From Raja brachyura (Eukaryota): DNA of 64,000 bases. The DNA lies in the NCBI GenBank assembly GCA_963514005.1, contig OY740789.1, positions 62,310,001-62,374,000 of the forward strand, read 5' to 3'. This document shows positions 37,693-52,184 of this stretch, piece after piece. Both the position numbers and the translations under genes were made by a program. Each line of letters begins with the position of its first letter. The stretch's first letter is position 1. The notes beneath the pieces were generated by a model, which made no database searches, was not told the DNA's origin, and was given only the letters and a program-made list of their open reading frames with translations.

Positions 37693-39098
37693 GTTTACAT
37701 TGACGACTGCTTTGGTGTCACCTCCTGCACCCACGCAGAACTGACTGACTTTATCCATTTCACCACCAACTTCCATCCGGCACTCAAATATACTTGGACC
37801 ATTTCCGACATTTCCCTACCATTCCTTGACCTCACCATCTCTATTGCAGGTGACACACTCCTGACTGACATCCACTACAAACCAACTGACTCCCACAGCT
37901 ACCTGGACTACTCTTCCTCCCACCCTGCTTCCTGTAAGGACTCCATCCCCTATTCCCAATTCCTCCGACTACGCCGCATCTGCTCCCAGGATGACGTGTT
38001 CCACACCAGGTCATCGCAAATGTCCTCGTTCTTCAGAGAACGGGGTTTCCCCTCCCCCACTATCGATGAGGCTCGCACCAGGGTCTCCTCCATACCCCGC
38101 AACACTGCCCTCTCTCCCCATTCCCCCACTCACAACAAGGGCCGAGTCCCCCTGGTCCTCACCTTTCACCCCACCAGCCAGCGCATACAACAGATAGTCC
38201 TCCGCCAGTTTCGCCACCTCCAACGTGACCCCTCCACTCGCCACATCTTCCCATCTCCCCCCCTATCTGCCTTCCGCAAAGACCGCTCCCTCCGCAACTC
38301 CCTCGTCAATTCTTCCCTTCCCTCCTGCTCCACTCCTTCCCCGGGCACTTTCCCTTGCAACCGCAAGAGATGCTACACTTGTTCCTTCACCTCCCCCATC
38401 CACTCCTTTCAGGGACCCAAGCAGTCATTCCAAGTCCGACAGAGGTTCACCTGCACCTCCTCCAACCTCGTCTACTGCATCCGTTGCTCCAGATGCCAGC
38501 TAATCTACATCGGTGAGACCAAGCGGAGGCTAGGCGATCGTTTCGCCGAACACCTCCGCTCGGTCCGCAACAACCAACCCGACCTCCCGGTGGCTCAGCA
38601 CTTCAACTCCCCCTCCCACTCCGTATCCGACCTCTCGGTCCTGGGCCTCCTCCATGGCCAGAGTGAACAACACCGCAAGTTTGAGGAACAACATCTCATA
38701 TTCCGCTTGGGGAGTCTGCATCCTCTGGGCTTAAACATTGAATTTTCTCAATTCTGTTAACCCAGACTGCTCCTTTCCCCCCACCCCCCCACCTCTCCCT
38801 CAGCCCTCGGGCCCTGACATTCCTTCTCCATCTTCCCCCCCCCCCCCCAAGTCGCACTAGCTTCTCATTTTCACACCAGAAACAGCTTACAATGGCCTGC
38901 TTTCCTTATCACCAATACTTTTTTGCATATCTTTCACTCATTGTTCTTGCTTTATCTCTCCATATCACTGTTTATATCTCTCGTTTCCCTGATCCCTGAC
39001 CAGTCTGAAGAAGGGTCTCGACCCGAAACGTCACCTATCTCCTTCACTCCTTAGATGCTGCTGCACCCGCTGAGTTTCTCCAGCTTTTTGTGTAACCC
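37693..39098 (+). mobile_element. Young Penelope-like retroelement, 5'-truncated; open frame 37696-38760 (RT from YIDD + GIY-YIG endonuclease)
   Basis: YIDDCFG...NLVYCIRCSRCQLIYIGETKRRLGDRFAEH...GLNIEFS*; 13-bp TSD ttagtgtaaacct (37680-37692 / 39099-39111). Confidence 0.95.
39005..39032 (+). ncRNA. Minimal type I hammerhead ribozyme motif in the Penelope pLTR
   Basis: CTGAAGA-A-GGGTC-TC-GACCC-GAAA-C-GTC: conserved core boxes, 5-bp stem II, palindromic ACGT stem III, GUC cleavage triplet. Confidence 0.75.
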
Positions 39099-39433
39099 TT
39101 AGTGTAAACCTTGTCTAGTTCTGAGAAGAGACCATTGACCTCAAATGTTCATACAATTTCTCTATTCAAGTCCTGCCGGACTTGCGTGTTGTTTTTAGTG
39201 TATGCTACATTTATTTCAGATTACCAAATAATAGTTTTTGTTTCTGTGAAATTCAAACTCCTTTTCTGTGCCCCAAAACAGAATTCTATATGTAGAATAA
39301 ACCCTAAATAATGCCAATACCCTTGCATTAATATGAGTTTGTTAACATATCTTAATGTTTCACACAGTGATTTATCATTGTTATGCTGTACTGGAAAAAA
39401 TGTATTAATTGTGCATTTTCTGCCATCTCCCAG

Positions 39434-39584
39434 CCTGTCCTCAGCTATGTGCTGTATACCCTGGTAGGTACAGTGGGACTTCTAACCCATTACCTACTGC
39501 CCCAGCTCAGAAAGCAGCTCCCCTGGCACTGTTTTTCGCATCCACTGCTGAAAACCAAGGAGTACTATCAATTTGAAGTGAGAA
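39434..39584 (+). CDS. PCNX1: PCNX1 exon: [50 protein letters not shown]
   Basis: tcccag| ... |gtaagt. Confidence 0.95.
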
Positions 39585-39739
39585 GTAAGTATTCCTATAA
39601 AAACAATACAATGTTCACAGGATTATGACTGTCCATATAGGTGCGATGAACAGTTCAGAGATTTTGTTGTTAATCTGTTATTTCTGAAATGTTGCTTGGC
39701 AGTAAAGTCAACCAAGCATATACCAAGTTACTGAAATAT

Positions 39740-50874: not shown

Positions 50875-50973
50875 AACCTGAAGAAGGGTCTTGATCCGAA
50901 ACATCACCCATTCCTTCTCTCCAGAGATGCTGCCTGTCCCACAGAGTTACTCCAGCTTTTTGTGCCAATCTTG
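50875..50973 (+). mobile_element. Solo ~99-bp Penelope pLTR insertion starting at the hammerhead core
   Basis: ctgaagaagggtcttgatccgaaacatc (50878-50905); 9-bp TSD ggtacaaag (50866-50874 / 50974-50982). Confidence 0.85.
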
Positions 50974-51651
50974 GGTACAAAGGGGGACTGCTTTGTGCAT
51001 CAGTAATTTGCTTATTTAATTGTTGTAAAATTGAAAATAGTTGATTCCCATGCTTTATCAAATTTATTCAGGAGATCAAACCTTTTCTTTGCCATTCTGT
51101 TGTTTTGCGACTCGCACAAAAATACATTCCTTTTGGACTCCCATCTTTCATTGATATACGGTATCTATATTCAGATATTGAATCTGAGCAGGAGCAGGCC
51201 ACTCAGCTTTTAAGACTACTTGTCCATTTATTTAGATCATAGTTGACATGCATTTCCATATCTTGCACTTTCTTTCAATCCAAATTCCTTGTCAAATGTC
51301 TTGAACTGCAAATTTTTTAACAGTAACATAATTTTTGGGAAAAATTGCGGATATTTGTTGACCTGTTAGCCAAACATGCACTTGAAAAACTATTGCCAGT
51401 GTTCCTAATGACATTCAAACATACAAGAGTGACAATGTGCAAATTAATTGTGACATTATAATGATGAGCTGATTTCCTCAGTTCTCACAATCTGCACAGT
51501 TGCTGCATCAGGCCAGGAATGTCACCAAATGACAAAGGAAAAATTCATTACTGGAGATACATTTGGGTTGCACCTTATAATGTCACCTGGTAATTTAAAT
51601 TTCTATCAGCTGTCTTTAATACCCAGTTATGGTGAACAGTCTTCTATTGTT

Positions 51652-51737
51652 GGTTACACAAAAAGCTGGAGAAACTCAGCGGGTGCAGCAGCATCTAAGG
51701 AGCGAAGGAGATAGGCGACGTTTCGGGTCCAGACCCT
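51652..51737 (-). mobile_element. Solo ~86-bp Penelope pLTR insertion, same subfamily as 37693-39098
   Basis: Near-identical to the reverse complement of ~39012-39097; 12-bp TSD tcttctattgtt (51640-51651 / 51738-51749). Confidence 0.88.
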
Positions 51738-52184
51738 TCTTCTATTGTTTCTTGATATTATGTCTTAACATTGTACTTTAAAGCCATGTAAATGAAAAAT
51801 CTTGTTATTTATGCTTGATGCATTACCCTCTGTCTATATAAGTATTTTTTGTTGGCAATAAATCTAGGAGAAACATAATGCTTTGTTACATTTTGAGGTC
51901 TTCAGTTGGAAAGACTGTTTCAAGAACTAGAAAATTCATTTTGAGGCTTTTAGGGAATTTGGATTTTTTTTGTGATCCTTTGAATGTGTTGAACATGTTT
52001 CACAATATTTTGACAGGAGCAAGTGGGACTGCTTATTTTCTTTGGGTAATCGAGGAAACCACTCATTTCAACTTTTGCATTTGAATCTTGAATGATGTGG
52101 ATCATGTTTACCAGCAATAATCACCAGTCTGGGAATTACTCTCTGCTGGGTGATGTGTTGTATGTTCACCAAACTAGTAAAAAC

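What the first reader, a model, noticed from the sequence alone, without database searches (positions are those of the whole stretch)
39001..51749. Family of tiny hammerhead-ribozyme-bearing Penelope-terminus elements mobilised on their own
Seen: the ~100-150 nt terminus of the Penelope element (ctgaagaagggtctcgacccgaaacgtcaccc...ctgagttactccagcattttgtgtcta) recurs more than 10 times in 64 kb, on both strands (about 0.8, 8.2, 16.0, 21.2, 24.9, 28.5, 36.5, 39.0, 42.8, 46.9-47.3, 48.7, 50.9, 51.7 and 61.2 kb). Two copies are stand-alone 86-99 bp insertions with their own TSDs (50875-50973, 51652-51737) whose 5' ends fall at or inside the hammerhead core. Established: minimal type I hammerheads with a palindromic stem III occur in pLTRs of Penelope-like elements and are thought to work as dimers. 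Inference: in this lineage the ribozyme-bearing terminus behaves as an abundant non-autonomous, retrozyme/SINE-like element, rather than as random 5' truncation products.
Basis: partly seen in the sequence, partly recalled or inferred. Interest (0 to 1): 0.75.

Follow-up and report, generated by a model that had tools for sequence, protein, structure and literature searches.

The report
Penelope copies stop at RNA start
The tiny repeats are the first 100-130 bases of a young Penelope-like jumping gene, and most short copies begin just before its hammerhead motif rather than at the predicted ribozyme cut site, likely because that spot is the capped start of the element's RNA, so they are probably dead by-products of the full element rather than an independent mobile family.

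Summary
The repeats are real: 22 copies in the window and 514 in 1.36 Mb of evenly spaced genome samples (about one million by extrapolation). Both stand-alone insertions and their TSDs are as described. The 5' ends are not random: in the youngest family 50 of 93 copies begin within -8..+5 of the hammerhead core, 3 in the 133 nt upstream, and 2 at the predicted cut site. But the piece is not a separate element. In full-length copies it is the start of the unit (hammerhead, two priming sites, 5'UTR, then a ~1,190-aa RT/GIY-YIG ORF), and short and long copies carry the same variants. Extra bases at the junction end in G in 18 of 25 cases, like the cap signature of full-length L1. The best reading is run-off cDNA from an internal priming site to the RNA's capped start, inserted alone, as head-to-head pairs (12 of 13 with one tailed and one untailed arm), or followed by a template jump. 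Only 1 of 22 window copies keeps an intact core. True retrozyme-like derivatives (about 310-330-nt tandem units) exist but are rare. RNA evidence is lacking.

The parts
37693..39099 (+). 5'-truncated young Penelope-like copy (family A): end of ORF, pyrimidine-rich 3'UTR, terminus; 12-bp TSD at 37681-37692 and 39100-39111
37684..38760 (+). Open frame holding the C-terminal part of the element protein with a GIY-YIG match; many genomic copies are 100% identical and some have open frames of 1,129-1,221 aa
39000..39006 (+). Initiator-like YYANWYY (recalled consensus); its A (39002, position -3) and next base are where short copies begin genome-wide; inferred transcription start
   Evidence: sequence
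39003..39034 (+). Minimal type I hammerhead motif: core from 39005, bulged A, 4-5-bp stem II, palindromic 15.1-16.1, predicted cut after 39032, 2-bp stem I; the only window copy with all core letters
39035..39099 (+). Rest of the terminus up to the first 3' end (+93..95), the inferred first priming site
42733..42922 (.). Head-to-head pair: one arm with the ~35-nt tail, one without
46900..47336 (.). Two head-to-head pairs abutting tail to tail (four termini)
48715..48806 (+). Old diverged terminus below a pyrimidine-rich stretch
50875..50973 (+). Stand-alone 99-bp insertion, 9-bp TSD, 3 added bases then the core; core decayed
51652..51737 (-). Stand-alone 86-bp family A insertion (96.7% identical to the 39.0-kb terminus), 12-bp TSD, joined by microhomology inside the core; lacks C3/U4
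745..829 (-). Terminus with its own family's 3'UTR attached
8218..8309 (.). Head-to-head pair with a 13-nt flanking repeat
14954..15036 (-). Weak old copy (E 7e-4)
16043..16123 (+). Old copy
21204..21295 (-). Old copy
23715..23755 (+). Partial terminus plus tail joined to the RT region of another Penelope-like copy
24895..24985 (+). Terminus at the 3' end of that longer copy
28474..28552 (-). Old copy
36524..36609 (-). Old copy with tail
61195..61394 (.). Two old copies on opposite strands

Best explanation
The short copies are the first ~97 or ~132 bases of the Penelope-like unit, and they are likely run-off cDNAs that the full-length element's protein makes from an internal priming site near the 5' end of its own RNA back to a probably capped start at -3/-2, just before the hammerhead core. 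Shown: where the piece lies in the full unit, the two 3' ends (+93..95 and ~+129), the sharp 5' boundary, the TSDs and the added G bases. Known from a relative (Anolis Poseidon, PMC11167929): internal priming at two sites that define the tail, a need for RNA downstream of those sites, no need for ribozyme cleavage, and extension of both target strands. Inferred: the boundary is the transcription start. The finished short cDNA is then joined directly (solo), pairs with a second short cDNA or snaps back at the mini-palindrome around -1 (head-to-head pair), or jumps to another template (mini-tandems). Solos would be dead ends because they lack the RNA downstream of the priming site, and their hammerhead is a passenger that decays.
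For: Terminus and tail run straight into the 5'UTR and ORF in L178, L180, L181, L188 (RVT_1 and GIY-YIG matches below curated cut-offs). 5' ends of 93 family A copies taken without regard to their 5' end: 50 in -8..+5 (29 at -4..-2), 3 in -141..-9, 11 in +6..+25, 2 in +26..+31, 8 in +32..+56, 19 longer (p 9e-40 against uniform). Genome-wide exact 20-mers: 64,847 at +42..+61, 13,093 at -21..-2, 790 at +127..+146. TSD >=8 bp in 21 of 45 short non-inverted copies vs 11 of 300 mismatched pairs. Added bases end in G in 18 of 25 TSD-flanked copies that start at -3/-2 and have added bases. The base before the start is G in 48 and 60 of the first 100 listed matches, vs about 29-31% expected. The 4 TSD-flanked copies starting at +4..+7 join with 0-2 nt overlap and no added bases. 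An extra G marks capped full-length L1 ends (PMC11702581). Same variant frequency in attached (17 of 22) and short (40 of 50) copies. Longer 5'UTR-bearing pieces stop in the same zone (11 of 30 rows, some duplicates), and at 10 loci a copy starting at -6..+2 is joined to +185..+403 of another. Penelope has an internal promoter in the pLTR (PMC2377424).
Against: No RNA 5' end was seen: the four runs laid were contigs, two flagged as probably DNA. None of 7 copies whose 5'UTR runs on into the ORF for over 1.4 kb starts at -3; 6 continue seamlessly into upstream 3'UTR and 1 starts at +42, so full-length copies need read-through RNA or a strand transfer. The G excess is partial (7 of 25 additions end otherwise) and part of the raw excess comes from palindromic junctions. 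24 of 45 short copies had no TSD by my test. A second upstream probe (-40..-21) gave only 5,650 hits; it is polymorphic (9 of 19 spanning copies match) and cannot show a flat profile. In the pooled, selected set one variant differed between attached (38 of 69) and short (100 of 119) copies. The downstream-RNA requirement is borrowed from another species.
Confidence: 0.6

Rival explanations
1. The boundary is set on longer RNAs or on the cDNA: RT arrests at the protein-bound hammerhead or stem-I edge, or the GIY-YIG nuclease cuts the intermediate at its own pLTR.
For: The boundary coincides with the outer edge of the 2-bp stem I. Long copies pass through it seamlessly. Nuclease resolution is proposed for the tail (PMC8557442), and the Anolis protein cuts its own ORF-pLTR junction.
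Against: A structural block should stop RT at the 3' side of the fold (about +20..+30), where few ends lie. A nuclease cut does not predict added G bases. The hammerhead fold is less stable (-3.9 kcal/mol) than the predicted optimum (-7.3).
Confidence: 0.2
2. The solos are a self-propagating SINE/retrozyme-like family: an internal promoter transcribes inserted copies, and the autonomous protein copies them again.
For: Huge excess of short over long copies. An internal promoter would travel with each copy, and copies ending at +129 still hold the +94 site. Non-autonomous PLE derivatives and retrozyme monomers are published, and rare ones exist here.
Against: No solo-specific variants in the unbiased set. 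Additions at the 5' end vary instead of being inherited. Cores decay neutrally. The derivatives that do recur keep +130..+240 as well as upstream sequence.
Confidence: 0.12
3. RNA processing makes the end: ribozyme cleavage or a splice acceptor (pyrimidine tract, then AG at -3/-2).
For: The upstream sequence resembles an acceptor in all families, and in D. virilis the intron ends at helix I (PMC4209133).
Against: Only 2 of 93 ends lie near the cut. The join of the element's apparent donor (+159) to this acceptor occurs only twice, at one inverted pair. TSDs mostly lie 0-3 nt from the start, leaving no room for an upstream exon.
Confidence: 0.06
4. Ordinary random 5' truncation.
For: Explains the 19 long copies and the background of ends at +6..+56 with microhomology.
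Against: Rate per base is about 9 times higher in -8..+5 than just inside and about 160 times higher than just upstream.
Confidence: 0.02

Closest known systems
EN+ Penelope/Poseidon elements, e.g. Anolis Poseidon PAc (PMC11167929; PMC8557442)
   Same: Single RT plus C-terminal GIY-YIG ORF, partial tandems, hammerhead at the pLTR-ORF start, two 3' ends ~35 nt apart, adjacent inverted copy, tail often on one end only.
   Different: Here short products dominate (about four fifths of family A termini lack the 3'UTR), their 5' ends share one boundary with added G, the ATG is at +163 rather than in stem II, and paired arms are almost always one tailed and one untailed. Clade not tested by a tree.
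Dispersed minimal hammerheads of metazoan PLEs (PMC4209133)
   Same: Core with a bulged base before stem II, G10.1-C11.1 and palindromic 15.2-16.2; mostly single motifs, which that paper calls probably related to truncated PLEs; pairs on opposite strands.
   Different: Far higher copy number, a 2-bp helix I, and a defined rather than random boundary.
Non-LTR retrozymes (PMC7229834; bioRxiv 10.64898/2026.07.22.740005)
   Same: Non-coding, type I hammerhead, related to pLTRs, TSDs; the rare 311- and ~330-nt tandem units (L287, L288) fit the tandem definition.
   Different: The 86-132-bp copies are not tandem, are mostly core-defective and have ends unrelated to the cut site; no circular RNA is known.
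Full-length L1 ends and R2 snap-back/template jumps (PMC11702581; PMC11371274)
   Same: Extra G at the junction when RT reaches a capped 5' end; snap-back and jumps after full-length cDNA.
   Different: Here 'full-length' cDNA is only ~100-130 nt because priming is internal and near the 5' end.

Membership tests
EN+ Penelope-like element (parent) | One ORF with RT then GIY-YIG | tested here: met
   1,192-aa ORF in L188: RVT_1 at 676-844, GIY-YIG at 1096-1129, both below curated cut-offs
EN+ Penelope-like element (parent) | pLTR formed by partial tandem | tested here: met
   L178, L180, L181, L188
EN+ Penelope-like element (parent) | Optional 30-40-bp tail and adjacent inverted copies | tested here: met
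   3' ends at +92..95 and +126..134; 98 head-to-head pairs among 514 copies
EN+ Penelope-like element (parent) | RT groups with a named clade (Poseidon, Neptune) | not tested
   No tree built; Repbase and Dfam not on hand
Minimal type I hammerhead | Core letters, bulge before stem II, G10.1-C11.1, palindromic 15.2-16.2 | tested here: met
   Met in the source sequence (39005, full-length copies; bulge A in 194 of 207); intact in only 59 of 514 sampled and 1 of 22 window copies
Minimal type I hammerhead | Helix I of 4-5 bp (2 bp in D. virilis) | tested here: inconclusive
   Only 2 bp can form; Rfam gives no hit
Minimal type I hammerhead | Self-cleavage as a dimer or with protein | not testable with these tools
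   Needs a bench assay
Non-LTR retrozyme (86-132-bp copies) | Tandem units each with a complete hammerhead | tested here: not met
   0 of 42 same-strand neighbour pairs within 400 nt have two intact cores
Non-LTR retrozyme (86-132-bp copies) | Processing at the ribozyme site and circular RNA | tested here: inconclusive
   Genomic ends avoid the cut site; no usable RNA reads
Non-LTR retrozyme (rare 311/330-nt units) | Tandem units each with a complete hammerhead | tested here: met
   L287 has 3 and L288 has 2 intact cores; the same junctions recur at second loci
SINE-like non-autonomous family | Fixed 5' end and TSD-flanked retroposition | tested here: met
SINE-like non-autonomous family | Own source lineage distinct from the autonomous partner | tested here: not met
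   Same variants in 22 attached and 50 short copies; small sample
SINE-like non-autonomous family | Independent transcription of inserted copies | not testable with these tools
   Only contigs available

The most novel reading that the evidence does not exclude
These million inserts are the fossil 'strong-stop' cDNAs of Penelope-like elements. A protein dimer primes both target strands at the two internal sites (+94 and +129), copies to the capped start, and then ligates, anneals the two cDNA ends through the mini-palindrome at -1 (giving pairs with exactly one tailed arm, 12 of 13 in family A), or transfers to the identical pLTR at the RNA's 3' end and copies the ORF. That transfer would regenerate the pseudo-LTR in a retrovirus-like way, a step the literature calls unexplained, and would account for full-length copies running seamlessly through -3.
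Probability: 0.3. Interest if true: 0.72.

Novelty: new variant of a known kind. Interest (0 to 1): 0.46.

Why it matters
How Penelope-like elements finish reverse transcription and rebuild their pseudo-LTR is open (PMC2377424 says there is no obvious mechanism). A young family with about 65,000 termini and intact ~1,200-aa ORFs records both ends of its cDNAs at base resolution. That gives direct predictions for the existing in vitro system: start at -3, cap-dependent G, one priming site per strand. It also warns that huge counts of dispersed genomic 'hammerheads' or 'retrozyme monomers' in such genomes can be dead by-products.

Tried and rejected
Rfam scan: no hammerhead family; 3 chance hits on palindromes or simple repeats. 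Folding of six termini: none clearly more stable than shuffles (z -1.4 to +0.9), and the hammerhead fold is not the optimum. Stem II covariation across 207 copies: double changes at chance level. Cleavage-site ends: no peak. Splice join +159 to -1: 2 hits at one locus. Upstream probe -40..-21: polymorphic, uninformative. Long-range TSD search for captured host exons among 82 copies: distant matches were mostly inverted arms or element 5'UTR, and 42 of 82 had no match. Sequencing runs: 24 listed, all contigs; 4 laid (X1, X2, X3, X5); no start, end or strand can be read from them. Host gene: Pfam and the Atlas gave nothing. Literature: 9 searches showed no paper describing this 5' boundary, the added G or the one-tail rule in PLEs. 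Subscription papers (Lunse 2017 seen only as cited in a review), supplements, Repbase and Dfam were not seen and may already hold the family.

Full report
Numbering: the first C of the hammerhead core is 0 (window 39005); the predicted cut lies between +27 and +28. The window is G000:C9:62310001-62374000 in a 2.70-Gb genome. That it is a skate or ray is my impression from recalled repeat types, not a tool result.

Observation. A profile from 11 window copies finds 22 hits in the window, 514 in 136 evenly spaced 10-kb stretches (1.36 Mb; about 378 per Mb, roughly one million by extrapolation) and none in the reversed control. The two stand-alone insertions and their 9- and 12-bp TSDs are exactly as reported. 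Rfam has no hammerhead hit. The source sequence has the features listed for minimal PLE hammerheads in PMC4209133, with a 2-bp helix I. Only 1 of 22 window copies and 59 of 514 sampled copies keep all core letters. Stem II shows no excess of compensatory change. Neither stand-alone copy is intact.

What the piece is. The 39.0-kb terminus ends a TSD-flanked, 5'-truncated Penelope-like copy (family A). Its protein has many identical copies elsewhere and open frames over 1,100 aa. I fetched the 20 with the longest frames. In four of them the terminus and its ~35-nt tail continue directly into a 5'UTR and the ORF (ATG at +163; RVT_1 and GIY-YIG). So the 'terminus' is also the first ~130 nt of the unit. 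Copies end at +92..95 or +126..134, matching the two internal priming sites and optional tail shown for Anolis Poseidon.

5' ends. Of these, 50 begin at -8..+5, 3 at -141..-9, 11 at +6..+25, 2 at +26..+31, 8 at +32..+56 and 19 are longer. Exact 20-mer counts agree: 64,847 inside, 13,093 just upstream, 790 beyond the tail. A further upstream probe gave 5,650 but is polymorphic. Random truncation and cleavage-defined ends are therefore both rejected for the main peak. For all families together, 164 core sites in the even sample show the same loss of parental letters between -1 and -5.

Why there. The boundary sits in an initiator-like YYANWYY (recalled consensus), and Penelope has an internal pLTR promoter. 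TSDs flank 21 of 45 short non-inverted copies vs 11 of 300 mismatched pairs. Among 31 TSD-flanked copies starting at -3 or -2, 25 have added bases and 18 of those end in G. The raw base before the start is G in 48 and 60 of the first 100 listed genome matches (6,473 and 9,709 matches; counted by eye). After removing inverted and duplicated junctions it is G in 19 of 37 and 18 of 31. An extra G is the cap signature of full-length L1. Copies starting inside the core join by overlap instead (4 of 4 at +4..+7). Among 30 rows carrying sequence beyond the tail, 11 also stop at -6..+5, and at 10 loci a copy starting at -6..+2 is joined to +185..+403 of another, as expected of template jumps from a finished cDNA (R2 precedent).

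Pairs. 196 of 514 sampled copies are in head-to-head pairs, against 20 in tail-to-tail pairs; 1,237 perfect palindromes are centred on -1. In family A, 12 of 13 pairs have one tailed and one untailed arm and none has two untailed arms (p 7e-4); in older families it is 39 of 53, with 13 scored untailed on both sides (pooled loci, not all unbiased). Both arms end at priming sites. This fits priming of both target strands, as the Anolis protein does in vitro, or snap-back followed by trimming; the published reading of such palindromes is self-priming on an antisense template.

Independent family? One variant is equally common in attached (17 of 22) and short (40 of 50) copies of the unbiased set. 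A pooled, selected set differed (38 of 69 vs 100 of 119) and included a sister family. No same-strand neighbour pair has two intact cores (0 of 42). In Anolis the template needs RNA downstream of the priming sites, which solos lack. Real non-autonomous derivatives do exist. A 311-nt unit (-70..+241) forms a TSD-flanked three-hammerhead array (L287), and its junction recurs at one other locus 135 Mb away, 4 junctions in all. Two other junctions each occur at two loci; L287 and L288 were picked for their tandem spacing. These keep the downstream RNA and fit the retrozyme definition, but they are a small part of 790 sites.

Against my reading. There is no RNA evidence. None of 7 copies running far into the ORF starts at -3: 6 continue into upstream 3'UTR and 1 starts at +42. 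The G excess is partial, and over half the short copies lack a detectable TSD.

Papers seen: bioRxiv 10.64898/2026.07.22.740005 parts 1-3 of 5; PMC11167929 and PMC4209133 parts 1-2 of 4; passages only of PMC2377424, PMC8557442, PMC3846280, PMC7229834, PMC11702581, PMC11371274 and PMC6765202; no supplements. Earlier AI notes from other genomes report the same boundary; they are leads, not support.

Verdict: real, ordinary in kind (Penelope-like insertions), but with an unusually clear and testable record of where cDNA synthesis starts and stops. New variant of a known kind; interest 0.46.

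Noticed in passing
L287 (G000:C1:162939250-162940550), L277, L288, L283, L261, L262: Internally deleted 310-335-nt units of family A (about -70..+241, -69..+266, -41..+260) with intact hammerheads, in tandem and with junctions recurring at two loci each: candidate true retrozyme-like derivatives, possibly from circular RNA.
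   Followed up: partly
L257, L263, L265, L267, L271-L273, L275, L278, L279: Jump acceptor points cluster mostly at +185..+285; short RNAs may end there. Unexplained.
   Followed up: no
L118, L088, L030: A larger repeat carries a head-to-head terminus pair with shared flanks over 250-400 nt, so the pair was amplified as part of another element.
   Followed up: no
L048 and L101; L089 and L047: Solo or paired termini sharing 190-400 nt of flank between loci, i.e. carried by a host repeat or duplication.
   Followed up: no
L194:3452-3802; L284-L285: Minisatellites of ~65-nt and 124-nt units made from parts of the terminus without the full core.
   Followed up: no
window ~35700, 36190, 43570, 46200, 49180, 50660, 59780 (+): Exon-like frames of a host gene that I recall as pecanex-1 (my notebook's earlier guess GPAA1 is wrong); Pfam and the Atlas did not confirm it. 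Termini lie on both strands equally (11 and 11).
   Followed up: partly
window 52185-52480 (-): tRNA-derived SINE resembling the elasmobranch HE1 type (recalled).
   Followed up: no
window 9694-9996 (-); 61991-62446 (-): Tc1/Sleeping Beauty-type transposase fragment (HTH_SB, E 8e-26) and a LINE RT fragment (RVT_1, E 3e-14).
   Followed up: partly
family A ORF, e.g. L188:4896-8474: The ORF is long for a PLE (~1,190 aa), with a proline/serine-rich N-terminal half and an overlapping second open frame in some copies; a splice-donor-like site lies 3 nt before the ATG.
   Followed up: partly
window 38985-39004 and related families: The end of the 3'UTR in every family is a pyrimidine tract with a branch-point-like word a few bases before AG, resembling a splice acceptor that overlaps the initiator-like site.
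   Followed up: partly
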